Positions 7,854 through 24,718 of a stretch of 64,000 bases of DNA are shown piece by piece. The position numbers and the translations under genes were made by a program. The notes under the pieces were generated by a model, which worked only from the letters and a program-made list of their open reading frames with translations, had not been told where the DNA came from and did not search any database. The stretch's first letter is position 1. The number at the start of each line of letters is the position of its first letter. Source of the DNA: Gordonia sp. (in: high G+C Gram-positive bacteria) (GTDB lineage Bacteria; Actinomycetota; Actinomycetes; Mycobacteriales; Mycobacteriaceae). The stretch spans positions 7,222 to 71,221 of the forward strand of contig NZ_JAGQTN010000061.1 in assembly GCF_020438995.1 (NCBI RefSeq). The letters are read 5' to 3'.

Positions 7854-7885
7854 GGCCGGCTCCCGCGCTACAGCGGGAGCCGGCC
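7854..7885. terminator. bidirectional terminator hairpin between icd and jetC
   Basis: 13-bp stem ggccggctcccgc / gcgggagccggcc with a 6-nt loop; the jetC stop codon lies in the loop. Confidence 0.75.
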
Positions 7886-10800: not shown

Positions 10801-11209
10801 CGGCGGCAAGCCATTTGAGGACCAGGCCGGTGATGGACGTGCCGGAGGTGGATGTGTAGGTGACAGCGATCGCCGCCCACGCCGGTCCGGTACCGCGCAA
10901 GTACATGATCTCGCGGCCGGCGCTCGTCCCGCTGCGCCGCTCCCCCCACGCCCCGCGCACATACTTGCCGACGGTCCGTTTGCCGCTGGACGATCCTGCC
11001 GCCGTCGCATCGCCGGAGGCATTGAAATTGCGCCGGTGATCGGGCAGAAACGCCAGCGAAATCGCGTCCAGCAGAGAGGATTTGCCGCTGCCGGAGGAGC
11101 CGGTGATGAGTGCGCCGTTGGCGCTGAACGGAATCGAATGATAGCCATCGAACACGCCCCAGTTGATCAGCTGTAGCCGGGACAGGTGGTATTGGTCGAT
11201 AGTGCTCAC
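7868..11209 (-). CDS. jetC: Wadjet/Mks SMC ATPase JetC (MksB/EptC-like)
   Basis: 1113 aa; [11 protein letters not shown], Walker A GSSGSGKS, long coiled coil, signature NSGGEQEKL, Walker B LMLDEAF. Confidence 0.92.
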
Positions 11210-11958
11210 CAGTCCGCTCCCTCGGTCGTGTCCGGGCGGTTGTTACCGGCGTCCGTATCCGGGGCGCTGTCGGAGTCGTCGGCTTGGTCGCCGGAGGACA
11301 TGAACTGCTCGAACTGCCGTTGCAGGTCGGTGATCACCGAGGCGGTCATCACTGCCGTGATCACCGGGCTCAGCACGAAGGTGTCGGGGTCATCGCGCTG
11401 AGCCCGCAGAAACTCCATTTCCTCCATCTTGTCGACGGCACGGTCGATGCGTTTGTCGAAGGCCGCCAGGTCGCGGTCGATGGTGTTGGAGACACCGGCG
11501 AACATCTCGTGGATGTCCTCGCGGGTGATGAGCACATTGTCCTCGCGCGAGGCACGCATGTACTTGGCCAGGTGCAGCGCCAGGATAGCGTCGTAGGTGT
11601 TGATCGTCTCGCGTTTGAGCAGCCTTCGGCCCCAACGAGATTCATAACCGACTTGCTCGACGAACGCGATCTGCAACTCGTCGACGATCCGCAGCCGCAG
11701 GTCCAGCTCGGACAGCCGCACGCGCAGGACATCGGCGAATTCGGCCACCCACGACCACAATTGGGGCTGGCGTTCACCGCTGATGTGGCGGCGGGTCAGC
11801 AGGTTCTGCAGCGCCCAGCACGCCCGGTCGGGCAGTGCGCTCACGTCGCCGTCGAAACGCGGCACCTTGGGGCCGTGGTCGGCGGAGGTCAGCGGTACCG
11901 CGGGCAGGTCGTCGTAGCCGGCGAACTCGTCGGGAACATCGGTGGTGGTGTCGGTCAT
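11206..11958 (-). CDS. jetB: Wadjet JetB (DUF4194-like)
   Basis: 250 aa winged-helix-type KITE subunit between jetA and jetC; 4-nt overlap with jetC. Confidence 0.85.
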
Positions 11959-11965
11959 GGGTACC

Positions 11966-13432
11966 TCAGACCTCGTCGATCAGGATGTCGGCGGTCGGGA
12001 TCGGTTCGGAGAACATCAGGGCGGGGATCTCGATGATCCGGTCGTCACCTTCCAAGGACTGGAATCGCACGATCTCGGTGGTCGTCGGCGCGGTGCCGGG
12101 CTGTTTGAGGGCCAGCGACCATAGGACGATGACGTGCGCGAGATACGCCTCGTCGAGGCGGCCCAGGACATCGGGCAATGCGACCGGACCGTCGGCGACC
12201 GCACGGTTGACCAGGTCCGTCAGCTCGACCGTGTCCACCTGACCGGCCAGGGAAGCGAATGAGCTGAGGTCACCGCCGGTGTCTCCCGGCAGTGCGGGCG
12301 GTGGTGGTGCCGGGTCGCGGATCTCGAATGCGACCCGGCCGATGGAGGTGAGGTCGGGGGTGGCCAGCGGTATCTCGTAGCCCAGGCGCCGGTCGGCGAG
12401 CGAGGCCTTGAGCAGCTCGTTCGCGGTGGCCAGGGCATCGTTGAGTTGCCGGGCGATACCTCGGCTCTGTTCCAGGGTGCCGGCGGCGACGAACCGCCGG
12501 ATGCGGCGGGCGCAGCGTTGCCGGGTGCGGCCCACCTCGGCCATCTGTTCGGTGATCAGCGGAAAGAAGTCGGTCATCACCGCGCGCAGACCCGGTTCCA
12601 TGTCGGGCAGGCTGCGGGTGACGGTGTCGATGTCGGCCGAGAGCCGGGCGCGTTGGTCGGGATCCTGGATCATCCGGGTGAACGCGTGATACGACGCGCT
12701 CTGCGACGACCCGAGCAGGGTTTCGTAGTCGTCGAACAGTTGCCGTTGCCGGTCGCGGTAGGCCAGGTCGGAGTCGCTCGGGTCGTCGAGCAGTGCGGTG
12801 GTGATGCGGTCGAGCATCGTGCCGTATTGCGCGATGTCGGAGATGACCTGTTCCATCTGGTAGGCGATGGCGCGGGCCTCGTCGGCGGCGATCCGCAGGT
12901 CGGGTTCGGGGCGGACCCCGGCGTCGAGATCGGCCAATTCGGCGTCGAGATCTGCGAGCTGGTTTTCGATATCCTCGCGGATCTGGTCGGGATCACCGGC
13001 CACCTGCCCGGCCACCCGATGCAGCCCGGCGGCGATGCCATTGATCGATCCGCCGGTGGCCACGGAGTCCTCGCGGCGGCGCCGGCGCATGAAGTCGAGG
13101 ACGGACCGGGCGTCGGCGGTCAGGTAACAGATGTTGGGAGCAACGGCGTCGGAAGTGTCGGTGACCCGGTGCAGCCACCCGTTGCGCGCCCATAGCTTGA
13201 TCAGCTCCACGCCGGTCGGGGTGTCCTCGGCGTCGAGTTCGGTCATATCCCGTTCGAGGCGGACGGCCAGCTCGGGTTCGGCCAGCCGTGCCCCGAAGTC
13301 GAGGTGCCGTTCCATCAGCGTCACGTACAGGGCGGAGTTGGTGGCCGCGAACAGCCGCACCGCCGCCGACTTCTGGATCGTCCGGTTGTCCTGCCACGCC
13401 TGCGTCAGGGTCGCGTGTTCGTCGCTCATCAT
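11966..13432 (-). CDS. jetA: Wadjet JetA kleisin (DUF3375-like)
   Basis: About 488 aa from ATG 13432 (SD-like aggtgg); [11 protein letters not shown]...[13 protein letters not shown] winged-helix pattern; first gene of the jetABC order. Confidence 0.85.
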
Positions 13433-13650
13433 CACCACCTCAGCTCGCTGACGTAAAACTGCCCCGCGTAGTCTCCCACGTCCCGCCGGCAGACCCTCGC
13501 AGTGTGCGAGTTCCTGCACACCTCCGACGACTTCGACTGTCGGATCTTCAGTAGCGATAGCTGACCACCTGCTGACTTCGATCAAGCGACCCGTTCCGGC
13601 GTATCCTGGGTCAGACGTAGTACGCGACACACGCTATCTAGGAGGTCACG

Positions 13651-13878
13651 GTGCGACTCAACAGCAAAGGTCAGGTCACCATCCCCGCTGAGTTGCGGCA
13701 CCGATTCGGATTCGTCGAGGGCGATGAGGTCGACGTGATCGCCGACGGCGACACGTTGCGCATCGTGCATACCGTTCCCGCCGTCTCTCGCGGTGAGCGG
13801 ATGGTGGCCCGTATGCGCGGCCGCGCAACTACCGCATACACCACCGACGAACTCATGAAACTGCTTCGGGATGAGTGA
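13651..13878 (+). CDS. AbrB/MazE-fold antitoxin (VapB-like)
   Basis: MRLNSKGQVTIPAELRHRFGFVEGDEV; SD ggagg upstream. Confidence 0.9.
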   Translation: MRLNSKGQVTIPAELRHRFGFVEGDEVDVIADGDTLRIVHTVPAVSRGERMVARMRGRATTAYTTDELMKLLRDE

Positions 13879-14284
13879 ATCGACCCTCGTTGACTCGAAT
13901 GTCCTGCTCGACGTCTTCACCGATGATCCGGTGTGGTCGGGTTGGTCCGGGCAAGCGCTCGCCGAGGCTATGGACCGCGGCACGGTGATCATCAATCCGA
14001 TCGTCTACGCCGAAGTATCAGTGGGCTTCGATCGTATCGAAGACCTCGACGCCCTCCTGCCCACCGACTACTTCATCCGTGAGGCGCTCCCCTGGTCCGC
14101 AGGTTTCCTCGCCGGGAAAGCCTTTCTCGCATATCGGCGCCGGGGCGGCACCCGGCCGACACCACTACCCGACTTCTACATAGGCGCGCATGCCGGTGTG
14201 TCCGGCCATCGCCTCCTCACCCGCGACCTGGGCCGATACGCCACATCGTTTCCCCAGGTGGTGCTCGTCACCCCTGACACCTGA
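13871..14284 (+). CDS. PIN-domain toxin (VapC family)
   Basis: LVDSNVLLD, VYAE, PLPDFYIGAHA, LLTRD; 8-nt overlap with the antitoxin. Confidence 0.9.
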   Translation: MSESTLVDSNVLLDVFTDDPVWSGWSGQALAEAMDRGTVIINPIVYAEVSVGFDRIEDLDALLPTDYFIREALPWSAGFLAGKAFLAYRRRGGTRPTPLPDFYIGAHAGVSGHRLLTRDLGRYATSFPQVVLVTPDT

Positions 14285-14532: not shown

Positions 14533-17500
14533 ATGCACACTGTCGATCCGGGATTGATCGACGCCGCCAAGCAGTCGGTGAACTTCGGTGTCCTCGCTCC
14601 GATTGAGCCCTTGTTGGCCATCTACGGTGCGGGTGCCGAGTCCGGTGTCTACACCGACCCGAACGGTGCGCTCATCAAGTGCCGGCAGTTCGGTGAGGTA
14701 CTCGCCGAGCAACTGATTCAACGCAGCGGCACCCGGTTCGACGGATCCAGACAGGTCGAGCGCATTACCACCCTCGAACGTGCCGGGGTTCTCACGTCCG
14801 GCGCCGCCGACGCCCTGCACAGCATCCGCAAGATCGGCAACGAGGCCACCCACAGTCACCTGTTCAACGTTCGTGCTGCTTTGGTGGCCCTCGAACAGTG
14901 CTGGGAACTCGGCAACCTGCTGTACCTTGCGCTGTCTCCGGCCGACCAGCGTCCACGGAGTTTCATCGCACCGCGGCCGCTCACTCAGCCGACAGTGGTC
15001 GGACGCGAGGATCAGCAACAGCTGGACGCGATCAACCGCCGGCTCGCCGAGTCGCATACGCAGCTGACCGAGACGTTGACCGTGCTCAATGCCACCAAAT
15101 CCGCGCAGGCCGCCGAGTCGGAAGCACGTCTGGCGGCCGAGAAGGCACTTGCGGATGCGCAGGCACGAGAAGCCGTGGTCGCCGCGAAACTGGCCGCACT
15201 GGAGAAGAAGCTCTCTGCCCTACAGAGTTCAGGCGCGCTCGCCACCCAGGACACGGCGAAGGTATCGGCAGCGGCGGGGAACTCGTTCTCGCAGGCTTTC
15301 CGGCGCCGTCCGCCACTCAACGAGGTGCAGGCACGCCGGGAGATCGATCGTCAACTCGTCGCGGCCGGCTGGGTTGTCCAGGACTATGGCGACCTCAATA
15401 CCGCTGCGGGCATCGGCGTCGCCGTACGCGAGTTCCGGCTCTCCACCGGCTTCGCCGACTACCTGCTGTATGTCGATGGCAAGATCGTCGGCGTCATCGA
15501 GGCCAAACGCGAGGGCACCGCACTGATCGGTGTGGAGCAGCAGACCGCGAAATACTCGGTGGGACTACGCAAGGAGGATCAGCTCGCCGCCTGGCGACGT
15601 GACGAACCGCTGCCGTTCCTGTACGAATCCACCGGTGCGGAAACCCGGTTCACCAACCGCCTCGACCCGAAACCGCGCTCACGCGATGTGTTCACCTTTG
15701 CCAAGCCGGAGACGGTGCGGTCCTGGATGCAGCAGGCGGACGAGCGGCCTGACGCGCCGACTTTCCGCGCCCGATTGCAGCACCTCCCCACACTCGACCC
15801 GAAGGGTTTGCGGCCCAACCAGATCCAGGCGGTCACCGGGATCGAGAAGTCGCTCAAGGACAATCGTCCCCGGGGTTTGGTCCAGATGGCCACCGGCGCG
15901 GGCAAGACCTTCACCGCGGTTACCGCGAGCTACCGGCTGATCAAACACGCAGGCGCAGCAAAGATCCTGTTCCTCGTCGACCGCAACAATCTGGGCGAGC
16001 AGGCACAGGCCGAGTTCGACAACTATGTGCCGATCGACGACGGCCGCCGTCTCGGCGAGATCTACAACGTGCAGCGCCTCGCCGGGCACACTGTCCTCGG
16101 GTCGACCAATGTCGCGATCTCCACCATCCAACGGCTGTACGGCCTGCTACAGGGCAAGGAGCTCCCCGACGCCGATGTCGATGACGACGCGGACGGCGAA
16201 ACGTTCGAACCGGAGTCACCGGTCGATGTGGTCTACAACGTGAACGTGCCACCGGAGACGTTCGATCTGGTCATCGTCGACGAATGTCACCGGTCCATCT
16301 ACGGCCGCTGGCGTGCGGTGCTCGACTATTTCGACGCACCGGTCATCGGGCTGACCGCGACCCCGACCAAACAGACGCTGGGCTTCTTCGACCAGAACCT
16401 CGTCAGCGAGTACACCTACGAGGAGTCGGTGATCGACGGGGTGAACGTGCCGTTCGACGTGTACCGGATCCGGACACAGATCACCGAACAGGGCGCGAGG
16501 ATCGAAGCGAAAACGGTGGTACCGGTCCGCGATCGCCGCACCCGCGCGCAGCGCTATGTCGAACTCGACGACGACTACGCCTACACCGGCAATGCGATCG
16601 GCCGGGACGTGATCAGCGAAGACCAGATCCGGCTGGTGCTCACCACGTTCCGGGACCGGCTCTACACCGAGGTCTTCCCGGGCAGGTCCGCGGTCCCCAA
16701 AACGCTGATCTTCGCCAAGACCGACGCACACGCCGACGTGATCGTCGAACAGGTGCGGGAGGTGTTCAACGAGAGCGCCGAGTTCGCCGCCAAGATCACC
16801 TACAAGTCGAAAGCCGAGGGCAAGGACCCCAAGCACCTACTGCAGAACTTCCGCAACAGCCCGTCGCTGCGGGTGGCGGTGACCGTCGACATGATCGCCA
16901 CCGGCACCGATGTGCGCGCCATCGAGTGCGTCTTCTTTCTGCGATCGGTGCAGTCGGCAGTGTATTTCGAGCAGATGAAGGGCCGCGGCTCCCGCATCAT
17001 CGGCACCGACGACTACGCCGCGCTGACCCCGGATGTGGCCAAGGGCGTCACGAAGGACCGCTTCGTCATCGTCGACGCGGTCGGCGTCACCGAATCACCA
17101 CTGGTGGATGCGACGCCGATGGAACGTGAACCCGGCGTGTCACTGGAGAAGCTGCTGAACAAGGCCGCGAATCTGACGATCACACCCGACGAGGCATCGA
17201 GCCTGGCGATGCGGCTGGCGAAGCTGGCCACTCAGATGGACGCCGCCGAAGCCGCCGAACTGGCCGAGATCGCCGGCGGAGTCGAACTACGCGAGATCGC
17301 CAAACAGGTCGCCGACGCCAGCGACACCGACGCCGTGCTGGCTGCCGAGAAACGCGGCGGAAAAGACGAGGTGGCAGCACAAATCCATGGTGGTGTGGCC
17401 CCGCTGTCGAGCAATCCGGAACTGCGGCAGGCGATCCTGGACCTGCGCCGCAAGAAGGATCTGATCTTCGACCAGGTCAACGCCGACACCCTCATCAGCA

Positions 17501-18096
17501 CCGACCGCATCCCCTACGGCGAGGGAGCCCACGAACCGGTCCGCTCGTTCCGCGAGTACCTTGCCGAACACCGCGACGAGATCGCCGTGCTGCAAATCCT
17601 GCACGGCAGCGCGCCGGGACGCCCCACCTACGCCGAACTCAAAGCCCTCGCCGAGCGGGTAGCGAGGGTTCCCGCGATCGGCAGCATCGAAACCTTGTGG
17701 CGTGCCTACGCCGACCTCGGTGAACTGGCAGATCCCGGGCACAAGGTCGACGTACCCGACCTGGTCACCATCCTGCGCCACGAACTCGCCAAAGACTCCG
17801 GTGCAGGAACGGAGTCGAAGATTCAGCCGTTCGCCTCCACAGTCGAGGAGAAACTCGCGCACTGGCTGTCCGACCAGCACCGTCACGGAGTCGACTACAC
17901 CGACAGGCAACGCCGCTGGCTCGACATCATCAGCGACGTCGTCAAAACCAACATGGCCGTGGAGATCACCGACCTCGACCACATCCCGTTCAGCGACCTC
18001 GGCGGCAGCCAACGCTTCGCCACCGACTTCAACATCACCACCCGAGAGGAAGCACTACAGTTGCTCGACGAGTTGAACACGGAACTGATCGCGTGA
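14533..18096 (+). CDS. hsdR: Type I restriction enzyme R subunit (DUF4145-like N-terminus, EcoEI_R_C-like C-terminus)
   Basis: Nuclease ADYLL...IEAK, Walker A MATGAGKT, DECH box, TATP, VTVDMIATGTD, QMKGRGSR. Confidence 0.95.
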   Translation: MHTVDPGLIDAAKQSVNFGVLAPIEPLLAIYGAGAESGVYTDPNGALIKCRQFGEVLAEQLIQRSGTRFDGSRQVERITTLERAGVLTSGAADALHSIRKIGNEATHSHLFNVRAALVALEQCWELGNLLYLALSPADQRPRSFIAPRPLTQPTVVGREDQQQLDAINRRLAESHTQLTETLTVLNATKSAQAAESEARLAAEKALADAQAREAVVAAKLAALEKKLSALQSSGALATQDTAKVSAAAGNSFSQAFRRRPPLNEVQARREIDRQLVAAGWVVQDYGDLNTAAGIGVAVREFRLSTGFADYLLYVDGKIVGVIEAKREGTALIGVEQQTAKYSVGLRKEDQLAAWRRDEPLPFLYESTGAETRFTNRLDPKPRSRDVFTFAKPETVRSWMQQADERPDAPTFRARLQHLPTLDPKGLRPNQIQAVTGIEKSLKDNRPRGLVQMATGAGKTFTAVTASYRLIKHAGAAKILFLVDRNNLGEQAQAEFDNYVPIDDGRRLGEIYNVQRLAGHTVLGSTNVAISTIQRLYGLLQGKELPDADVDDDADGETFEPESPVDVVYNVNVPPETFDLVIVDECHRSIYGRWRAVLDYFDAPVIGLTATPTKQTLGFFDQNLVSEYTYEESVIDGVNVPFDVYRIRTQITEQGARIEAKTVVPVRDRRTRAQRYVELDDDYAYTGNAIGRDVISEDQIRLVLTTFRDRLYTEVFPGRSAVPKTLIFAKTDAHADVIVEQVREVFNESAEFAAKITYKSKAEGKDPKHLLQNFRNSPSLRVAVTVDMIATGTDVRAIECVFFLRSVQSAVYFEQMKGRGSRIIGTDDYAALTPDVAKGVTKDRFVIVDAVGVTESPLVDATPMEREPGVSLEKLLNKAANLTITPDEASSLAMRLAKLATQMDAAEAAELAEIAGGVELREIAKQVADASDTDAVLAAEKRGGKDEVAAQIHGGVAPLSSNPELRQAILDLRRKKDLIFDQVNADTLISTDRIPYGEGAHEPVRSFREYLAEHRDEIAVLQILHGSAPGRPTYAELKALAERVARVPAIGSIETLWRAYADLGELADPGHKVDVPDLVTILRHELAKDSGAGTESKIQPFASTVEEKLAHWLSDQHRHGVDYTDRQRRWLDIISDVVKTNMAVEITDLDHIPFSDLGGSQRFATDFNITTREEALQLLDELNTELIA

Positions 18097-19514
18097 TGGA
18101 GCAGGAGCTGCCGCAGGGGTGGGCGTGGACGACTCTGGGGGACGTAGCAGACATCGGTTCAGGAGCGACTCCAAAGACCAAAGTAGCCGAGTACTGGGGT
18201 GATGAAGTCGCGTGGGTGACTCCGGACGACCTTTCTCGCAACAAGGCGACTAAGTTTATCGGGTCGGGTCGTCGTAGCCTATCAACGCTTGGCTATGAAT
18301 CCTGCTCAGCACGAACATTTCCATCGGGTTCTGTTGTTTTCAGCTCACGTGCCCCAATTGGGCACATCGCAATCACATCAGGGCCGGTAGCGACCAACCA
18401 AGGTTGTAAGACCGCAGTCCCACGGCCATTGATCGACAGCAGGTTCTTGTATTGGCTACTGAAGTACGTCACGCCCGAGATCGAGAGTCGCGCAAGCGGG
18501 TCGACGTTCAAAGAAATCTCGGCGAGCGGGTTCGCTGCGACTCAGATTCCCCTCCCCCCACTCCCTGAGCAACACCGCATCGTCGAGGCCCTTGAAGACC
18601 ACCTCTCCCGACTGGATGCTGCGGAACTGACTCTTGTATCGGCAGCTCGTCGTGCGGAATTGTTGATATCGAGACTCGTGGATCATACGGTCCTCGGCGT
18701 TGCCACGAGCACTCCCATCAGTGGTGCGCCAGCCTCTGATCTGAAGGGCAAACACAACCGCTTCGACTACCAGGGACTTCCTTCGCTTCCCCAGGGTTGG
18801 TCATGGAAACTCGCTGCCGACCTGTGTAAATCTATCAACTCTGGCTCGACACCCAAATCTGAGTTCATGCAGCAAGGCCAGGGTGAGATACCCTTCCTTA
18901 AAGTATACAACATCGACCCTGCGGGCAGGGTTGACTTCACGAAGAATCCAACCTTTGTATCGCGTGACACCCACTACGGGCAACTGAAACGGTCGATTGC
19001 GTTACCGGGAGATGTTGTTACCAATATTGTCGGACCACCACTCGGTAAGAGTGCCGTAGTGCCGGATAGTTACCCGGAATGGAACACAAATCAGGCGATT
19101 GTCTCCTTCCGTGCCGGTGATTCGATTCACCCATCCTGGCTTGCATTGTGCTTGCGTTCACCATTTATTATTCGTCTCCTAAAGAGCACCGCCAAGGCAA
19201 CGGCAGGACAATTTAATATTGCATTGTCGACGTGCAGAGAATTGTCGCTGCCGGTGCCTCCACTAAGGACTCAGGAAGTACTGTTGGAAGAACTTGACGC
19301 TGCAATACTTGCGCTCGAACACGCAAATATCGCCCAGCGAACGTCGCGGTCGAGATCCACGACTCTCCGCAGCGCGCTCCTACGCTCGGCGTTCAATGGC
19401 CGGCTCGTCGACCAAGACCCAACTGATGAACCTGCGGGTGTCGCTCTCGAACGGACCCGCAACCATCAGCCCGCCGCCCCGCCCCGGCGCCGGCGGAAGG
19501 CAGCTGCGAAATGA
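18093..19514 (+). CDS. hsdS: Type I R-M specificity subunit, two TRDs
   Basis: LPQGWAWTTLGDV start; two conserved spacers (LPPLPEQHRIV, VPPLRTQ...LLRSAFNGRLV); visibly lower GC; 4-nt overlap with hsdR. Confidence 0.93.
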   Translation: MMEQELPQGWAWTTLGDVADIGSGATPKTKVAEYWGDEVAWVTPDDLSRNKATKFIGSGRRSLSTLGYESCSARTFPSGSVVFSSRAPIGHIAITSGPVATNQGCKTAVPRPLIDSRFLYWLLKYVTPEIESRASGSTFKEISASGFAATQIPLPPLPEQHRIVEALEDHLSRLDAAELTLVSAARRAELLISRLVDHTVLGVATSTPISGAPASDLKGKHNRFDYQGLPSLPQGWSWKLAADLCKSINSGSTPKSEFMQQGQGEIPFLKVYNIDPAGRVDFTKNPTFVSRDTHYGQLKRSIALPGDVVTNIVGPPLGKSAVVPDSYPEWNTNQAIVSFRAGDSIHPSWLALCLRSPFIIRLLKSTAKATAGQFNIALSTCRELSLPVPPLRTQEVLLEELDAAILALEHANIAQRTSRSRSTTLRSALLRSAFNGRLVDQDPTDEPAGVALERTRNHQPAAPPRRRRKAAAK

Positions 19515-19543
19515 GTCGACACTACCGGACCGCCAGGTGATCG

Positions 19544-20452
19544 ATGTCCTACGAATGGCACGTCGAAGCAGTAGACGCCTGGACAGTGGCAACGACCACC
19601 GACGAACCTCAAACGGCAGACGAGCCGCTGGGAACGAAAGCGAAATTCTGGGTTGTCGACCCCGACGGTCGTCGCTGCTTGTTCAAGTATGCGCGGGCGC
19701 CGCAAGGCCGGACAATGGGTGAGGATTGGGTCGAGTGGGCGGTCCATCATTTGGCGACCATGCTGTCAATTCCCTCCGCGACGGCCATCCCGGCAACCCA
19801 CGAGGGGCAGCGAGGAGTCCTGTCGCGTTCCGTACTCACTGCGGATGATCGCCTCGTTCACGGTAACGAACTGCTCACGCTCACAGACCCGGAGTACGAC
19901 GCGACCGCCGAACGCGAGTACCACCGCTACACGATCGATGCGGTGCGCAGAGCGCTCGATGGAATTGCCGCACCCACGTCGTGCGGGGCACCGATCACAA
20001 CCGCCTTCGATGCCTGGGCCGGTTACCTAATGCTCGACGCGTGGGTCGCTGGACGTGATCGTCATCATGAGAACTGGGCAGTCATTGAGCGAGCCGGGGA
20101 ACTGAGCCTCGCGCCATCGTTTGACCATGGGAACGCACTCGGCTTCCAAGTAGCAGAAGCGGAGGCTCGAAACCTCTCACTCGACGGCAACCGCCTGGTC
20201 AAGTGGGCGCGGCGTGGTCGTAGCCATCACTTCAACGGCAGACCTGGGCTTGTGGATCTCGCTACAACGGCGCTGGGCCTGGCTGACCGTGAAGCGCGCG
20301 ATTTCTGGATTGCCAAGCTCGCAGCGGTCACGGACGATGAGGTGGCAAGTCTACTGGCGAGTGTGCCCGCCGACTATTTGTCAGACCCGGCGCGTAAGTT
20401 CGCAGTGAAGCTTCTCCATCTCAACAAGGAAAGGATCCTCGACGGTGACTAG
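19544..20452 (+). CDS. HipA-like (HipT/CtkA-type) protein kinase
   Basis: EPLGTKAKFW loop, LFK lysine, GEDWVE, catalytic LDAWVAGRDRHHENW, Mg-binding LAPSFDHG; no N-terminal HipA subdomain. Confidence 0.85.
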   Translation: MSYEWHVEAVDAWTVATTTDEPQTADEPLGTKAKFWVVDPDGRRCLFKYARAPQGRTMGEDWVEWAVHHLATMLSIPSATAIPATHEGQRGVLSRSVLTADDRLVHGNELLTLTDPEYDATAEREYHRYTIDAVRRALDGIAAPTSCGAPITTAFDAWAGYLMLDAWVAGRDRHHENWAVIERAGELSLAPSFDHGNALGFQVAEAEARNLSLDGNRLVKWARRGRSHHFNGRPGLVDLATTALGLADREARDFWIAKLAAVTDDEVASLLASVPADYLSDPARKFAVKLLHLNKERILDGD

Positions 20453-21191
20453 CGCTTCCTGCAGGGTGGCTACCGTCGCCGATGTCAGCGTGGCCAGGCG
20501 TCTCTTCCTGATCTGGCAGAACCCCGGATCACGGCAGTTCGTGCGGGTGGGCACCCTGTTCGAGCTCGTTGACGGCCGGTATGCGTTTGAATACACCGCC
20601 AGCGCCCGAGCCACCGATGACTTCTACCCACTGACCCAGTTCCCCGACATGGAACGCACCTACGTGTCAACCGGCTTGCCGGCGTTCTTCGTCAACCGGC
20701 TCATGTCGCGCAAGCGTGAGTCGTTCACCAGCTACCTGCACGCGCTCGGCATCGACTCGGACGCCGTCGACACTCCGATGGAGTTGCTGGCCCGGACCGG
20801 CGGCCCCAGGGCAACTGACACCTTCCATCTCGTCGATGACCTGATGGCCGATGCGGATGGTGTCGTCGTCAGCAGATTCCTGGCTTCAGGCGTTCGCTAC
20901 CTTGACGCCGATGGCACCCACCTTGCACGTGTTCGGGACGGCGACCGCCTGCGGCTGCGACCAGAACCCGACAATCCCAAGAACGGGCGAGCCCAACTCG
21001 TGTGCGTCGCCAGTGGCGCCGCCGTGGGTTACGTTCCCGACTGGCTCCTCAACGACCTCGAAGACCTCCAAGCCAGAGTCGACGAACTGAGCGTCATCGC
21101 TGAACGCGTCACTGCAGACGCGCAACCGCACCTACGTTTGCTGTGTCGAATCGAGGCACGGGTCCGAGGTGGGAAACAACACTCGAACTGA
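20445..21191 (+). CDS. HipS-like N-terminal domain + HIRAN domain protein
   Basis: N-half IWQNP...VGTL...YAFEY...QFPD...LPAFFVNRL; C-half GDRLRLRPEPDNPKNGRA...VGYVP (HIRAN pattern); 8-nt overlap with the kinase. Confidence 0.8.
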   Translation: MTSASCRVATVADVSVARRLFLIWQNPGSRQFVRVGTLFELVDGRYAFEYTASARATDDFYPLTQFPDMERTYVSTGLPAFFVNRLMSRKRESFTSYLHALGIDSDAVDTPMELLARTGGPRATDTFHLVDDLMADADGVVVSRFLASGVRYLDADGTHLARVRDGDRLRLRPEPDNPKNGRAQLVCVASGAAVGYVPDWLLNDLEDLQARVDELSVIAERVTADAQPHLRLLCRIEARVRGGKQHSN

Positions 21192-21222
21192 TTTGTCAGT
21201 ACTGGACCGTATGGTTGTTCCC

Positions 21223-22227
21223 ATGACCAGTGGGGGTTCGGGTGAATCGGCACATCAGCCGCATGACGGGTTGTTCCGGCGGGTGTTCGGCGACCCCAAA
21301 CACGCCGGATCAGAACTGCGTTCGGTGTTGTCGGCGGAAGTGGCCGCACACATCGACCTCGAACACCTCGAGCCGGTCGCAGCATCGTTCGTCGACGACT
21401 ACCTGAGCCAGGTGCACAGCGATCTACTGTTTCGCACCACCTTCGACGGCGACGACGCCTACCTGTACTTTCTCATCGAGCACCAGAGCAGCCCCGACGA
21501 CCTGATGGCCTTCCGGATGCTGCGCTACCAAGTCCGCATCTGGGAACGCCACCTCAAGACCGAACCCACGACTTCGGGCAAGACCGGCCTACCAATGATC
21601 GTGCCGGTAGTGCTCTACCAAGGCCATCGGCGCTGGACCGCCCCCACCGACATCGCCGACATCATCAAGGTCAGCGACCACGCCGCCACCGCGTTCGCCG
21701 ACCTTCTACCCCACGTGCGGTACATCCTTGACGACCTGACCGTCGTCGACGAGGCTGCTATGCGAGCGCGGCCACTGACCCCGGCGGCAAGAATCGCCGC
21801 GCTCCTGCTGGGACCGGCATCCAAAGACGCCGACGTCACGACGACGTTGCGTGCCTCACTCGATGACTGGCAGACCGTCGCCGACACGGAGCCAGCCCTG
21901 CTCGTCGTGTTCTTCACGTATCTTCTAATAGTCGGCGAAACACAGGCCGACGACATCACGCACTTCGCTGCGCAACTGGGCCAAGAAGCTAAGGAGGCCG
22001 CCGTGACCACAGCACAACGACTCCGCCAAGAAGGCATCGAGCAGGGCATCAGTCAAGGCATCAGTCTGGGACAGTCACAGCTACTGGTGGCCATGCTCGA
22101 AGCCAGATTCGGCGAACTCGACAACGACACCCGTCTCCGAATCGAACACGCCACGGCCAGCCAGATCGCAGACTGGAGCACCCGCTTCGCGCGTGGAGCA
22201 AACTCGATCAGCGCCGTCGTCGACTGA
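21223..22227 (+). CDS. Rpn/YhgA-like PD-(D/E)XK nuclease
   Basis: HDGLFRRVF, HSDLLF, FLIEHQS, MAFRMLRY, IVPVVLYQG; C-terminus AQRLRQEGIEQG...LEARFG. Confidence 0.9.
   Translation: MTSGGSGESAHQPHDGLFRRVFGDPKHAGSELRSVLSAEVAAHIDLEHLEPVAASFVDDYLSQVHSDLLFRTTFDGDDAYLYFLIEHQSSPDDLMAFRMLRYQVRIWERHLKTEPTTSGKTGLPMIVPVVLYQGHRRWTAPTDIADIIKVSDHAATAFADLLPHVRYILDDLTVVDEAAMRARPLTPAARIAALLLGPASKDADVTTTLRASLDDWQTVADTEPALLVVFFTYLLIVGETQADDITHFAAQLGQEAKEAAVTTAQRLRQEGIEQGISQGISLGQSQLLVAMLEARFGELDNDTRLRIEHATASQIADWSTRFARGANSISAVVD
22003..22227 (+). CDS. putative intragenic small antitoxin (RpnS-like), 74 aa
   Basis: SD aaggagg at 21991-21997, 5 nt before an in-frame GTG at 22003; product begins (M)TTAQRLRQEG. 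Confidence 0.65.
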   Translation: MTTAQRLRQEGIEQGISQGISLGQSQLLVAMLEARFGELDNDTRLRIEHATASQIADWSTRFARGANSISAVVD

Positions 22228-22270
22228 CATCTGCTGAGCCGTCCTGTCCCCGCCCCTGTCGGCATCGGCG

Positions 22271-22654
22271 CTCGGACTGATTTGTCAGTACTGGCACGTA
22301 TGGTTACTCGTGATCAGCGGAGGTTCGGGTGAGCGGGCGTATCAGCCGCATGACAGGTTGTTCCGGCGGGTGTTCGGCGACCCCAAACACGCCGGATCAG
22401 AACTGCGGTCGGTGTTGTCGGCGGAAGTCGCCGCGCACATCGACCTCGATCATCTCGAGCCGGTCGCGGTGTCGTTCGTCGATGACAACCTGCGCCAGGT
22501 GCACAGCGATCTGCTGTTCCGCACCACCTTCGACGGCGACGACGCCTACCTGTACTTTCTCGTAGAACATCAGAGCAGCCCCGACGACCTGATGGCGTTT
22601 GCGGATGCTTCGCTACCAAGTCCGGATCTGGGACCGCCATCAGGTCGTCGATGA
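22271..22654 (+). pseudogene. truncated, frameshifted second rpn copy including its upstream region
   Basis: 22271-22641 aligns with 21182-21553; extra G at 22601 shifts the frame; homology ends at ...IWDRH. Confidence 0.85.
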
Positions 22655-22719
22655 CCGCAGAAATGTCCCGTGGGAAACCGGTGGACATCGAGCGGGTGGC
22701 CTGCGGCTACCCTCGACAC

Positions 22720-24234
22720 GTGAGTAACGCCGCTGAACTTCGTCGCCTCGTCGACAAACTATGGAGCTACTGCGACGTCCTGCGCGATGCCGGGGTGTCG
22801 GCGATCGACTATGTGGAACAGCTCAGTTTCCTTCTGTTCCTGAAGATGGCCGACGAACGTCAGCAGAACTTCATGAACCCGGTGCAGATCCTTCCGCCCG
22901 AACTCGACATCTCGTGGGAACGACTTGCGAAGCTCGACGGTGTGGCTCTTGAGGAGGAGTACCGCCGTATCCTGAGCGAGCTCGGCAAGGAAACCACCAA
23001 CCTCGGTGTGGTCTTTCGTAAGGCGCAGAACAGGATTCAGGAGCCCGCTCTGCTCCGGAAGCTGGTCGTCGACCTGATCGGCTCGGAGAACTGGTCGAGC
23101 ATCGGCGGTGACCTCAACGGTGACGCCTACGAGGGCCTTCTGCAGAAGTCGGCGTCGGATGTGAAATCCGGTGCCGGACAGTACTTCACCCCGCGAACGC
23201 TGATTCACGCCATGGTGAACGTGATGCGCCCGAGCCCGGCCGACACCATCATCGACCCGGCTTGCGGTACGGGCGGATTCCTGCTGGCGGCCGTCGAGTA
23301 TCTCACCCATCATCACGGTGACTCGATGACACCGGCTCAGCGCCGGGCGCTGAGTGACGGCCGCACAGTGCGCGGCGTCGAACTGGTAGACGGCACAGCC
23401 AGGCTCGCAACCATGAATATGTTCTTGCACGGCATCGGGCAGGCCACCGGCGAACCGGTGATCGATGTCCATGACGCGCTGGCCACCAAGCCGTCCCGTA
23501 CCGCGTCGATGGTGCTGGCCAATCCGCCGTTCGGCAAGAAGTCATCGATCACCGTCGTCGGTGACGATGGGCGCGCCGAACGCGAGGATGTCGCGTACAA
23601 CCGGCAGGACTTCTGGGTCACCACCACCAACAAGCAACTCAACTTCGTTCAGCACATCGCGTCACTGCTCGCCATCGACGGGCGAGCGGCGGTCGTCGTG
23701 CCCGACAATGTGCTGTTCGAGGGTGGTGCGGGTGAGACGATTCGCCGGCGACTGCTCAACGAATACGACGTCCACACCCTGCTGCGTCTGCCCACCGGCA
23801 TCTTCTACGCGGGCGGCGTCAAGGCGAACGTGCTGTTCTTCGACCGCAAACGGGCGCGGCCGAACCGACCATGGACCGACAGGTTGTGGGTGTACGACTT
23901 CCGCACCGGTGAGCACTTCACCCTCAAACAGCGACCGCTGCGTGACGAGCATCTACAGTCGTTCATCGATGCGTTCAACGCCGACGACCGTTCGGCACGA
24001 GTCGAATCCGAACGTTTCAAGGCCTACGCCTACGACGACCTCGTCGCCCGGGACAAGGTGAACCTCGACATCACCTGGCTCAAAGACCCTTCACTCACCG
24101 ACGCCGACGACGGTGTACCGCCGGAGATCATTGCGCAGGAGATCGTCGAGGACCTGACCGCAGCACTCGCCGAGTTCACCGCAGTGGCCGACGCGTTGGC
24201 AGCCAGGGCTGCGGAGGTGGCCGCCCGCAACTGA
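22720..24234 (+). CDS. hsdM: Type I R-M methyltransferase subunit (N6-adenine)
   Basis: LVDKLWSYCDVLRD, GQYFTPR, DPACGTGGFL, NPPF, LRLPTGIFY; GTG 22720 is the likely start, with an in-frame ATG at 22651 as alternative. Confidence 0.95.
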   Translation: MSNAAELRRLVDKLWSYCDVLRDAGVSAIDYVEQLSFLLFLKMADERQQNFMNPVQILPPELDISWERLAKLDGVALEEEYRRILSELGKETTNLGVVFRKAQNRIQEPALLRKLVVDLIGSENWSSIGGDLNGDAYEGLLQKSASDVKSGAGQYFTPRTLIHAMVNVMRPSPADTIIDPACGTGGFLLAAVEYLTHHHGDSMTPAQRRALSDGRTVRGVELVDGTARLATMNMFLHGIGQATGEPVIDVHDALATKPSRTASMVLANPPFGKKSSITVVGDDGRAEREDVAYNRQDFWVTTTNKQLNFVQHIASLLAIDGRAAVVVPDNVLFEGGAGETIRRRLLNEYDVHTLLRLPTGIFYAGGVKANVLFFDRKRARPNRPWTDRLWVYDFRTGEHFTLKQRPLRDEHLQSFIDAFNADDRSARVESERFKAYAYDDLVARDKVNLDITWLKDPSLTDADDGVPPEIIAQEIVEDLTAALAEFTAVADALAARAAEVAARN

Positions 24235-24307
24235 ACCTTCACCTTCCGGTGAGTGGCTCGATGACATCACGCCCTGCGAAGCTGCGATGAGCAACCACTC
24301 GTCCTGA

Positions 24308-24349
24308 TACCTAGAGGTCCGAGGTACTGTTACCTTGTAGTTCTAGGTA
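24308..24349. promoter_or_regulatory. twin TACCT-N9-AGGTA palindromic boxes, probable PadR operator
   Basis: tacct-agaggtccg-aggta (24308-24326) and tacct-tgtagttct-aggta (24331-24349), just before the PadR start. Confidence 0.6.
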
Positions 24350-24361
24350 TGGAGGTTTGGC

Positions 24362-24718
24362 GTGCACATCGACAAGGACCTGGTGGCGGCCTCGGCGACG
24401 CCACTCGTGTTGGGAATCCTCGCCGATGAAGGCGCGTCGTATGGCTATGCCATCCTCAAGCGCATCCGTGAGCTGTCCGGGGGCAATCTGGAGTGGACCG
24501 ACGGGATGCTCTATCCGCTGCTGCACCGTCTGGAGCGGCACGGATACGTGCAGTCGTCGTGGCAGACGTCCGGGGAGGGCCGGCGGCGCAAGCACTACAC
24601 GCTCACCGATGCCGGACGCCGAACCCTCGCCGAACGACAGGACCAATGGGCCGTGGTGAGTGAGGTCCTGGACCGTGTCTGGCACATCGGCCCACTTCCT
24701 CAGGCGTTGAACCCATGA
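24362..24718 (+). CDS. PadR family transcriptional regulator
   Basis: SYGYAILKRI...GMLYPLLHRLE...RRRKHYTLT. Confidence 0.92.
   Translation: MHIDKDLVAASATPLVLGILADEGASYGYAILKRIRELSGGNLEWTDGMLYPLLHRLERHGYVQSSWQTSGEGRRRKHYTLTDAGRRTLAERQDQWAVVSEVLDRVWHIGPLPQALNP

What the first reader, a model, noticed from the sequence alone, without database searches (positions are those of the whole stretch)
19544..21191. Top candidate: HipA-like kinase + HipS-like/HIRAN partner embedded in a Type I R-M operon
Seen: an intact-looking kinase (K in LFK, DRHHENW, FDHG) overlapping a 248-aa partner whose N-half resembles the HipA N-terminal/HipS subdomain and whose C-half has a HIRAN pattern, directly after hsdS. 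Known: HipA/HipT kinases arrest growth by phosphorylating translation components, HipS-type proteins inhibit them, and HIRAN domains bind 3' ssDNA ends. Kinase-HIRAN pairings have been noted in phylogenetic surveys, but I know of no established anti-phage mechanism for them. Inference: a DNA-end-sensing abortive-infection switch, in which free 3' ends from restriction or phage replication engage HIRAN and release the kinase as a back-up to R-M.
Basis: partly seen in the sequence, partly recalled or inferred. Interest (0 to 1): 0.8.

Follow-up and report, generated by a model that had tools for sequence, protein, structure and literature searches.

The report
Known hipIN kinase pair inside restriction operon
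Two intact genes in the middle of a Type I restriction-modification operon encode a HipA-type protein kinase and a partner that joins a kinase-inhibitor-like domain to a HIRAN domain; the pair is already catalogued (hipIN, PADLOC candidate PDC-M03) but I found no experimental test of it.

Summary
ORF 19544-20452 is a 302-aa HipA-superfamily kinase with all its catalytic motifs. ORF 20445-21191 overlaps it by 8 nt and encodes a 248-aa protein with a HipS-like N-half and a HIRAN-fold C-half. The pair lies between hsdS and hsdM of an intact Type I R-M operon in a Gordonia genome.

It is not new. It matches PADLOC PDC-M03A/B (E 2e-100 and 9e-72). That candidate was defined because such cassettes are embedded in BREX, DISARM and Type I R-M operons. 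It also has the hipIN architecture of Gerdes et al. 2021, who had already proposed the DNA-end-sensing, abortive-infection model. I found no experimental test.

What this analysis adds:
- The five-gene operon hsdR-hsdS-hipI-hipN-hsdM recurs in six Mycobacteriales genera and has diverged as one unit.
- Orthologous operons also exist with an empty slot or with other cargo (Mrr, a PIN protein).
- In at least four stand-alone loci the kinase is broken while the partner stays intact, which suggests a toxin.
- The actinobacterial HIRAN replaces the canonical 3'-end pocket motif NPYD with NPxN, so the ligand is uncertain.

Verdict: a new member of a known, untested kind. Interest is moderate to low.

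The parts
14533..18096 (+). hsdR, Type I restriction subunit (1187 aa); first gene of the host operon
   Evidence: Pfam ResIII, SWI2_SNF2, EcoEI_R_C, HSDR_N, DUF4145. Orthologues at 69-84% identity in 7 loci.
18093..19514 (+). hsdS, specificity subunit (473 aa); overlaps hsdR by 4 nt
   Evidence: Pfam Methylase_S, 2 stretches. Only 28-54% identical among orthologous operons, as expected for specificity swapping.
19544..20452 (+). hipI-type HipA-superfamily Ser/Thr kinase (302 aa) lacking HipA N-subdomain 1; PDC-M03A
   Evidence: PADLOC PDLC04342 at 334 bits, E 2.4e-100. Pfam HipA_C 22.8 bits. Invariant K48, D172, H174, N177, D194. A profile of the family hits CtkA 3AKJ. AF2 pLDDT 88.7; fold matches CtkA, HipT(Lp) and HipA.
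20445..21191 (+). hipN-type partner (248 aa); 8-nt overlap with the kinase; PDC-M03B
   Evidence: PADLOC PDLC04347 at 239.5 bits, E 9.3e-72. Follows the kinase in 30 of 30 related loci. dN/dS 0.06-0.15.
20493..20837 (+). HipS-like / HipA N-subdomain-1-like domain of the partner (about aa 17-131)
   Evidence: Pfam Couple_hipA aa 34-119, 22.5 bits, at the gathering cut-off. Foldseek hit to HipS(Lp) 8EZR_A, prob 0.99, TMt 0.50. Contains the most conserved block, TPxExLARTGGPRATDTFH.
20862..21164 (+). HIRAN-fold domain of the partner (about aa 140-240) with a non-canonical pocket motif DNPKN (aa 176-180)
   Evidence: Pfam HIRAN aa 144-239, 32.5 bits. Foldseek hits to HLTF HIRAN 4XZG/4S0N/5BNH and Lp_0118 3K2Y, prob 1.00. 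The profile alignment puts HLTF NNPYD opposite dNPvn.
21223..22227 (+). Rpn/YhgA-family PD-(D/E)XK nuclease gene; extra cargo specific to this lineage, not part of the hipIN pair
   Evidence: Pfam Transposase_31, E 1.6e-49; NCBIfam Rpn family. Absent from the orthologous operons, where hsdM follows the partner directly.
22310..22654 (+). Truncated second Rpn copy (N-terminal 114 aa) abutting hsdM
   Evidence: Pfam Transposase_31, profile positions 1-87 of 203. Direct repeats in register, about 90% identical: 21224-21512 / 22311-22599 and 21511-21551 / 22599-22639, with an 81% upstream stretch 21169-21216 / 22258-22305.
22651..24234 (+). hsdM, modification subunit (527 aa); last gene of the host operon
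   Evidence: Pfam N6_Mtase and HsdM_N. 80-90% identical in orthologous operons.

Best explanation
The two ORFs are a hipIN module, equivalent to PADLOC candidate PDC-M03. HipI is a short HipA-superfamily Ser/Thr kinase whose core resembles HipT and CtkA and which lacks HipA's N-subdomain 1. HipN supplies that missing subdomain as a HipS-like N-domain fused to a HIRAN-fold C-domain. The pair is cargo in the variable hsdS-hsdM slot of an R-S-[x]-M Type I restriction-modification operon in a Gordonia defence island. It is probably co-transcribed with that operon.

Shown here: gene integrity, domain identities, conserved catalytic residues, strict kinase-partner linkage, purifying selection, and co-divergence with the R-M genes.

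[quoted passage not shown] The HIRAN domain is the regulatory or sensor part. Engagement of its ligand during infection relieves the inhibition. The ligand is a nucleic-acid end or a related structure, but probably not a canonical 3'-OH end in this clade. The freed kinase then phosphorylates an essential translation component, by analogy with HipA on GltX and HipT on TrpS. This arrests growth and aborts infection as a second layer behind restriction.
For: Identity:
- PADLOC PDC-M03A/B at E 2.4e-100 and 9.3e-72.
- Pfam HipA_C, HIRAN and Couple_hipA.
- Folds: kinase to CtkA, HipT(Lp) and HipA; partner to HLTF HIRAN, Lp_0118 and HipS(Lp).
- The architecture is the one defined as hipIN.

Active kinase: K48, D172, H174, N177 and D194 are invariant in 25 homologues. 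They align to the CtkA catalytic loop and DxG motif.

Functional pair:
- Kinase followed by partner in 30 of 30 loci.
- 8-nt overlap with an SD-like run upstream.
- dN/dS 0.06-0.18 for both genes.

Toxin-like behaviour: in stand-alone loci L021, L025, L027 and L028 the kinase carries stops, frameshifts or truncations while the partner stays intact. None of the 8 R-M-embedded kinases is damaged.

Defence context:
- The hsdR-hsdS-hipI-hipN-hsdM operon is conserved in 7 other genomes from 6 genera. The R-M tree and the pair tree are congruent, and pairwise identities correlate at r = 0.86-0.89.
- The same slot is empty, or holds Mrr or a PIN protein, in related operons.
- Distribution is patchy: 3 of 37 species of the genus.
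- PDC candidates were derived by guilt-by-embedding.
- Another HipA-like two-gene system, DS-6/HipAD, protects against phage and needs its catalytic residue.

Expression: metatranscriptome contigs cover both genes and their junctions.
Against: - I found no experiment on any hipIN/PDC-M03 member in the held literature.
- No complex model could be made, so the HipI-HipN contact rests on homology with HipT-HipS and on gene linkage.
- The HIRAN pocket is non-canonical here: HLTF Y93 is a variable K or V, D94 is Asn, and H110/K113 correspond to Y and D. 3'-OH end binding is therefore doubtful.
- The partner is more conserved than the kinase (69% against 62% mean identity). This is the opposite of what is usual for labile antitoxins.
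- About three quarters of related loci are stand-alone, mostly next to housekeeping genes. Only a minority have defence neighbours.
- The kinase substrate is unknown.
- The metatranscriptome signal is shallow and could include DNA.
Confidence: 0.6

Rival explanations
1. Plain toxin-antitoxin or addiction module with no dedicated anti-phage role. HipI is a growth-arresting kinase and HipN its antitoxin. The module persists because losing it is costly, and it incidentally stabilises the R-M operon or island that carries it.
For: - Kinase decay with the partner retained in stand-alone loci.
- Patchy distribution.
- Most stand-alone copies sit among housekeeping genes.
- Gerdes et al. describe hipIN primarily as a TA module.
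Against: - Long co-divergence inside an R-M operon.
- The slot is shared with Mrr and PIN cargo.
- The guilt-by-embedding statistics behind the PDC candidates.
- A HIRAN sensor domain under strong purifying selection is not needed for simple addiction.
- The partner evolves more slowly than the kinase.
Confidence: 0.15
2. PrrC-like guard of the restriction enzyme. The kinase complex is held latent by, or monitors, the HsdRMS complex. It fires when a phage anti-restriction protein disables R-M, rather than when DNA ends appear.
For: - The pair has co-diverged with hsdR and hsdM across six genera, and hsdM lies downstream of it.
- PrrC is the classical toxin embedded in a Type I R-M operon. It is cited as almost exclusively embedded there.
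Against: - The module works as an autonomous unit in most lineages that have no R-M neighbour.
- It carries its own inhibitor-like domain.
- Orthologous R-M operons exist without it.
- I have no evidence of contact with Hsd proteins.
Confidence: 0.1
3. Regulatory or signalling kinase rather than a toxin. The HIRAN domain reads DNA damage or ssDNA, and the kinase phosphorylates an R-M subunit or a regulator. This would tune restriction (for example restriction alleviation) or operon expression, in the way the ssDNA-activated CapK/CapS pair controls immune operons.
For: - Precedent for a DNA-activated kinase next to immune operons.
- The pair sits upstream of hsdM in one transcription unit.
- The partner is highly conserved.
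Against: - CapK is a GHKL kinase unrelated to HipA.
- The characterised HipA-superfamily kinases cited in the literature read here target aminoacyl-tRNA synthetases and arrest growth (the rest is general knowledge).
- Stand-alone copies have no operon to regulate.
- Kinase pseudogenisation fits a costly toxin better.
Confidence: 0.07

Closest known systems
hipIN modules (HipI kinase plus HipN), main clade XI of the Hip kinase tree; Gerdes, Baerentsen and Brodersen 2021, mBio (PMC8262856)
   Same: - Short kinase of 279-321 aa with the core Hip motifs and the Gly-rich loop near the N-terminus.
- Downstream gene encoding a HipS-like N-domain plus a C-terminal HIRAN domain.
- No HipB.
- Actinobacterial subclades exist, and their HIRAN domains lack most DNA-contact motifs.
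   Different: Nothing architectural. That paper does not describe the R-M-embedded context, the conserved five-gene operon or the extra Rpn cargo. I did not test placement in their tree, because the accession lists were not available.
PADLOC phage defence candidate PDC-M03 (Payne et al. 2024, bioRxiv 10.1101/2024.01.29.577857)
   Same: Both proteins match the PDC-M03A and PDC-M03B HMMs over their full length. The candidate set was derived from cassettes embedded in BREX, DISARM and Type I R-M operons, which is the situation here.
   Different: None. It is a candidate only. The seven systems validated in that study were Hma-embedded ones, and I found no report that PDC-M03 was tested.
HipBST (HipT kinase neutralised by HipS; E. 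coli O127 and Legionella pneumophila, PDB 8EZR, 7VKB)
   Same: A split HipA. The kinase core lacks N-subdomain 1, and a separate small protein is homologous to that subdomain. Both folds are matched here.
   Different: The gene order is reversed (kinase first). There is no HipB repressor. The HipS-like protein carries an extra HIRAN domain. The closest solved kinase is CtkA rather than HipT.
HipL kinases (kinase, HipS-like domain and HIRAN domain in one polypeptide; Gerdes 2021)
   Same: The same three domains in the same order. This amounts to a fusion of HipI and HipN and argues that the two proteins act together.
   Different: Here they are two genes overlapping by 8 nt, not a single chain.
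DS-6 / HipAD and PDC-M66 (HipA-like kinase plus DUF3037/DUF1829 protein), a validated anti-phage system (PMC13092281, PMC12548924)
   Same: A two-gene system with a HipA-family kinase effector and a non-HipB partner. Defence requires the kinase catalytic residue.
   Different: The partner is unrelated, with no HipS-like or HIRAN domain. The HMM family is different (one search gives only PDC-M03 hits).
PrrC anticodon nuclease embedded in the EcoprrI Type I R-M operon
   Same: A latent growth-arresting effector encoded inside a Type I R-M operon and acting as a second line of defence. The embedding is cited; the mechanism is from general knowledge.
   Different: Unrelated protein (an ABC-ATPase-like anticodon nuclease) with no separate inhibitor protein. 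hipIN also occurs away from R-M.
HLTF HIRAN domain (PDB 4S0N, 4XZF, 5BNH), a 3'-end binder
   Same: The same fold (prob 1.00, TMt 0.53-0.62). The R71-Y72 equivalents (R151-Y152) and the N91 equivalent (N177) are kept.
   Different: - Y93 corresponds to a variable K or V.
- D94 corresponds to the near-invariant N180.
- H110/K113 correspond to Y and D within an invariant G-Y-V-P-D-W motif.
- There is an extra helical insert, as in Lp_0118.
- The roles of the HLTF residues are from my memory of the 2015 structures.

Membership tests
hipIN (Gerdes et al. 2021) | Short HipA-homologous kinase (279-321 aa) containing only the core kinase domain with the conserved Hip motifs | tested here: met
   302 aa. 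The Gly-rich motif LGTKAKFW is at residues 29-36. K48, D172-x-H174-x-x-N177 and D194 are invariant in 25 homologues. The fold matches CtkA, HipT and HipA without the HipA N-subdomain.
hipIN (Gerdes et al. 2021) | Gene directly downstream encodes a two-domain protein: N-terminal HipS-like domain plus C-terminal HIRAN domain | tested here: met
   Pfam Couple_hipA (aa 34-119) and HIRAN (aa 144-239). Foldseek hits to HipS(Lp) 8EZR_A, HLTF HIRAN and Lp_0118.
hipIN (Gerdes et al. 2021) | Kinase falls in a HipI subclade of main clade XI of the Hip tree | not tested
   The reference accessions were not retrievable from the stored supplements. The indirect support is that the paper reports actinobacterial HipI subclades.
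hipIN (Gerdes et al. 2021) | Kinase is toxic and is neutralised by HipN (toxin-antitoxin behaviour) | not testable with these tools
   Indirect evidence only: kinase-specific pseudogenisation with the partner intact in L021, L025, L027 and L028.
PADLOC PDC-M03 | Adjacent genes matching the PDC-M03A and PDC-M03B HMMs | tested here: met
   PDLC04342 at 334 bits covering positions 4-296 of 299. PDLC04347 at 239.5 bits covering positions 4-230 of 245.
PADLOC PDC-M03 | Anti-phage activity | not testable with these tools
   It is a candidate only, and no experimental report was found.
HipBST | Tricistronic hipB-hipS-hipT, with a HipB HTH protein and HipS encoded upstream of the kinase | tested here: not met
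   There is no HTH gene. The order is kinase then partner, flanked by hsdS and an Rpn gene.
Canonical HIRAN 3'-end binder (HLTF type) | HIRAN beta-barrel fold | tested here: met
   Foldseek prob 1.00 to 4XZG, 4S0N, 5BNH and 3K2Y.
Canonical HIRAN 3'-end binder (HLTF type) | Pocket residues that hold the 3' end (HLTF R71, Y72, N91, Y93, D94, H110, K113; residue roles recalled from the 2015 HLTF structures) | tested here: inconclusive
   The R151-Y152 and N177 equivalents are kept. Y93 corresponds to K179, which is variable. D94 corresponds to N180, which is near-invariant. H110/K113 correspond to Y196 and D199. A cyanobacterial relative (L030) keeps N-R-Y-D.
Type I R-M operon (host) | Intact hsdR, hsdS and hsdM on one strand | tested here: met
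   Pfam domains are complete for all three genes. Full-length orthologues are found in 7 loci.

The most novel reading that the evidence does not exclude
HipI-HipN may be a stable ligand-gated sensor-kinase complex rather than a labile-antitoxin pair. In Mycobacteriales it would be functionally coupled to the Type I R-M enzyme with which it has co-diverged. On this reading the HIRAN domain, with its derived NPxN pocket, reads a DNA end or intermediate made when restriction or translocation acts on, or is overwhelmed by, phage DNA. That switches the kinase on as a second layer of defence. It would be the first HIRAN-gated kinase immune sensor and a PrrC-like example of cross-talk between R-M and abortive infection.
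Probability: 0.15. Interest if true: 0.75.

Novelty: new member of a known kind. Interest (0 to 1): 0.35.

Why it matters
HipA-family kinases are classic persistence toxins, and one HipA-like pair (DS-6/HipAD) has recently been shown to defend against phage. The hipIN architecture adds a eukaryote-like HIRAN domain as the presumed sensor. In the library I could search it has not been tested in any organism.

This locus makes a good test case for three reasons:
- Nature supplies matched controls. The same R-M operon exists with the pair, with an empty slot and with other cargo.
- The host belongs to a group with tractable relatives and large phage collections: Gordonia, and Mycolicibacterium smegmatis.
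- The altered HIRAN pocket predicts a ligand different from a plain 3'-OH end, and that can be checked directly.

If the coupling to R-M is real, it would show how layered defence is wired at the operon level. If it is not, the pair is one more TA-type cargo in a known embedding hotspot.

Tried and rejected
- Single-sequence phmmer of either protein against the PDB found nothing. Profiles and fold searches were needed.
- I looked for the DEDD diDNase that accompanies about a third of actinobacterial HipA/HIRAN pairs (PMC11706625). None lies next to this pair, and none was among the top neighbour families of the related loci.
- I considered that the embedding was a one-off recent insertion. I rejected this because the five-gene operon recurs in six genera with congruent trees.
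- I considered that the pair needs the R-M genes. I rejected this as a general rule because 22 of 30 related loci have no R-M orthologue nearby.
- I considered CapK/CapS as a relative. It is a GHKL kinase with a STAS partner, so it is only an analogy.
- I considered a natural kinase-partner fusion in L011. The two tblastn matches lie in different frames (coordinates), so it is not a fusion.
- The apparent dN/dS of 1.77 for hsdM between L001 and L003 is probably an artefact of out-of-register HSP starts, and I disregard it.
- Literature searches for HipN/HipI, PDC-M03, HipAD and HipA-like anti-phage systems found no experimental work on hipIN.
Full report
**1. What is there**

The + strand of 14533-24234 carries a tightly packed gene row:
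- hsdR, 14533-18096
- hsdS, 18093-19514 (4-nt overlap with hsdR)
- a 302-aa ORF, 19544-20452
- a 248-aa ORF, 20445-21191 (8-nt overlap with the 302-aa ORF)
- an Rpn/YhgA nuclease gene (most likely start 21223, end 22227)
- a truncated second Rpn copy, 22310-22654
- hsdM, 22651-24234 (4-nt overlap with the Rpn fragment)

Pfam confirms complete R, S and M subunits. The consensus scan found no convincing terminator between hsdR and hsdM on the + strand. An AAGGAAAGGA run lies 9 nt before the partner's GTG. Homologues share the partner's N-terminal length, which supports the 20445 start.

**2. The kinase**

- Pfam sees only a sub-threshold HipA_C match (22.8 bits).
- The PADLOC model PDC-M03A matches end to end (334 bits, E 2.4e-100).
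- In an alignment of 25 homologues, K48 (LFK), D172, H174 and N177 (GRDRHHENW) and D194 (FDHGN) are invariant.
- A profile of the family hits the HipA-like kinase CtkA of H. pylori. It aligns across the catalytic loop and the DxG motif.
- The AF2 model (pLDDT 88.7) superposes best on CtkA (TM 0.70-0.77). HipT of Legionella comes next, then HipA at lower target coverage.
- This fits a kinase core that lacks HipA's N-subdomain 1. The Gly-rich loop sits at residues 25-34 and is the only low-confidence stretch.

**3. The partner**

- Pfam gives HIRAN (aa 144-239, 32.5 bits) and Couple_hipA (aa 34-119, exactly at the cut-off).
- PADLOC gives PDC-M03B (239.5 bits).
- The AF2 model has pLDDT 86 and pTM 0.81.
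- Its C-half matches the HLTF HIRAN domain and Lp_0118 (prob 1.00). Its N-half matches HipS(Lp) from the HipS-HipT complex 8EZR (prob 0.99).

**4. The HIRAN pocket**

In the profile alignment to HLTF, the motif N-N-P-Y-D-K-N-A lies opposite d-N-P-v-n-p-r-A.
- The window protein reads D176-N177-P178-K179-N180.
- Across 40 homologues N177 is invariant and N180 nearly so, while position 179 varies.
- R151 and Y152/H, the equivalents of HLTF R71 and Y72, are kept.
- The HLTF H110/K113 positions fall within an invariant G-Y-V-P-D-W motif.
- A cyanobacterial relative (L030) still has N-R-Y-D.

From my recollection of the 2015 HLTF structures, Y93 stacks on the terminal base and D94 contacts the 3'-OH. 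If so, this clade has a conserved but altered pocket. Gerdes et al. made the same general remark about actinobacterial HipN. The domain is clearly under selection, but 'binds 3'-OH ssDNA ends' cannot be carried over without a test.

**5. It is already catalogued**

- Gerdes, Baerentsen and Brodersen (2021) defined hipIN as a short HipI kinase plus a downstream HipN (HipS-like plus HIRAN). They found 14 modules among 1,239 kinases. They explicitly proposed that the HIRAN domain recognises DNA ends of invading or replicating phage, which activates the kinase and causes abortive infection.
- Payne et al. (2024) derived 145 'phage defence candidates' from cassettes embedded in BREX, DISARM and Type I R-M operons and put them into PADLOC. 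PDC-M03 is one of the multi-gene candidates. [quoted passage not shown]
- A 2025 NAR paper notes HipA/HIRAN pairs beside diDNase genes in Actinobacteria and cites both sources.
- I found no experimental test of hipIN.
- A different HipA-like pair (DS-6/HipAD, HipA-like plus DUF3037) has been validated as anti-phage and depends on its kinase residue.
- Earlier notes from this scan reach the same hipIN/PDC-M03 classification for other genomes. I treat those as leads, not as support.

**6. Comparative evidence gathered here**

(a) Thirty related genome loci all have the kinase followed by the partner.

(b) Seven of them have the same hsdR-hsdS-kinase-partner-hsdM operon. They come from Rhodococcus, Nocardia, Mycolicibacterium, Mycolicibacter, Gordonia and Mycobacterium. 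In five of the seven, hsdM follows the partner directly.

(c) On the pair tree the embedded loci fall in one 10-member clade, with two non-embedded exceptions.
- The hsdR+hsdM tree and the kinase+partner tree share the main splits.
- Pairwise identities correlate at r = 0.86-0.89.
- Mean identities are kinase 62%, partner 69%, hsdR 75% and hsdM 85%.
- The five genes have therefore diverged as one unit, and the kinase is the fastest-evolving apart from hsdS.

(d) The window's nearest relatives are from Rhodococcus and Nocardia, not the other Gordonia (L006, which is G025:C74). This implies transfer of the whole operon between genera.

(e) Orthologous operons (hsdR 81-83%, hsdM 90%) exist with hsdS directly followed by hsdM: L050 and L051.
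- One orthologous operon (L053) and more distant R-S-[x]-M operons, including a second one in this genome (L057), have other inserts in the slot.
- Of these, L056 carries Mrr and L055 a PIN protein plus an unknown one. The inserts of L053 and L057 gave no family match.
- The slot is a cargo hotspot, as the guilt-by-embedding work describes.

(f) Both genes are under purifying selection (dN/dS 0.06-0.18).

(g) In stand-alone loci L021, L025, L027 and L028 the kinase carries a deletion with frameshift, a 5' truncation, a stop at the invariant W36 codon, or a stop plus a frameshift. The partner is intact in each. No embedded kinase is damaged. Two of the four are isolate genomes, so this is not only MAG error. 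The asymmetry is what one expects if the kinase is the costly component.

(h) Stand-alone loci sit mostly among housekeeping genes. A minority have defence neighbours such as a Type IV REase, Wadjet, PD-Lambda-2 or PDC-M05.

(i) Only 3 of 37 species of the genus carry a strong match.

(j) The exact kinase occurs in 170 assembly blocks. The contexts shown were identical to the window's. Wastewater metatranscriptome contigs cover 19446-19674, 19738-20254, 20392-20835 and 21145-21295 at 99% identity or more. This is weak evidence of transcription across the gene junctions.

**7. Mechanism**

Inferred:
- By homology with HipT-HipS and the fused HipL proteins, the HipS-like domain docks on and restrains the kinase.
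- The HIRAN domain modulates that restraint on binding a ligand.
- The freed kinase phosphorylates a translation factor and arrests growth.

My confidence by step:

| Step | Confidence |
|---|---|
| Identity as hipIN/PDC-M03 | ~0.95 |
| Kinase-inhibitor relation | ~0.6 |
| Anti-phage role | ~0.5 |
| Canonical 3'-end sensing in this clade | ~0.25 |

Rivals are a plain addiction TA, a PrrC-like guard of the R-M enzyme, and a CapK-like regulatory kinase. Each is discussed in its own section.

**8. Verdict**

The interpretation repeats a published, untested hypothesis and is partly weakened at the HIRAN step. The locus is a new member of a known kind. Its value is as a well-controlled natural test case, not as a discovery.

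Noticed in passing
window 21169-22654: The Rpn/YhgA gene and about 40 nt upstream of it are tandemly duplicated. The main repeats are 21224-21512 / 22311-22599 (91%) and 21511-21551 / 22599-22639 (90%), with an 81% upstream stretch 21169-21216 / 22258-22305. The second copy is cut off after about 110 codons, exactly where hsdM starts (ATGA overlap). An inverted repeat (22582-22606 / 22626-22650) lies at the junction. The orthologous operons lack Rpn altogether.
   Followed up: partly
L050, L051, L053, L055, L056; L057 (= G000:C222, a second Type I R-M in the same genome): The hsdS-hsdM junction of this R-S-[x]-M operon family is a cargo hotspot. It is empty in L050 and L051. It carries Mrr (a Type IV REase) plus two unknown ORFs in L056, and a PIN protein plus a 285-aa unknown in L055. 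A homologous 283-aa unknown is in L056. A 321-aa unknown sits in the genome's own second operon (L057), and L053 has an unannotated insert of about 1.9 kb.
   Followed up: partly
L021:10001-10779, L025:10001-10705, L027:10001-10843, L028:10001-10848: In stand-alone hipIN loci the kinase is disrupted by a deletion with frameshift, a 5' truncation, a stop at the W36 codon, or a stop plus a frameshift. The partner ORF stays intact in each case. This is a toxin-decay pattern.
   Followed up: yes
G036:C6:1076-2753 (L041) and G025:C193:1360-2812 (L043): Two Gordonia species carry a second, very divergent hipIN-like pair. The kinase is about 33-35% identical to the window's but scores as well on the same PADLOC HMM. 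In G025 this copy appears split.
   Followed up: no
window 20745-20837 (partner aa 101-131): The most conserved block of the partner is TPMELLARTGGPRATDTFH, with E113, R117, R122, T124, D125 and F127 invariant. It coincides with the only low-confidence stretch of the AF2 model (aa 112-119, pLDDT below 50). It may be the kinase-contacting loop, which would order only in the complex.
   Followed up: no
window 24307-24350: A near-palindrome (ATACCTAGAGGTCCGAGGTA / TACCTTGTAGTTCTAGGTAT) lies between hsdM and the PadR-family gene at 24362-24718. It may be a PadR operator.
   Followed up: no
window 7854-14284: Upstream of the R-M operon are Wadjet-type genes (JetA/DUF3375, JetB and an SMC-like ATPase) on the opposite strand, and a MazE/AbrB-PIN (VapBC-like) pair at 13651-14284. 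The R-M operon and hipIN therefore lie in a defence island (gene calls).
   Followed up: no
G000:C84:12390-12827 and G000:C259:10436-10912: The same genome holds two further weak HipA-like matches in long ORFs (443 and 475 aa). They are probably canonical full-length HipA homologues.
   Followed up: no
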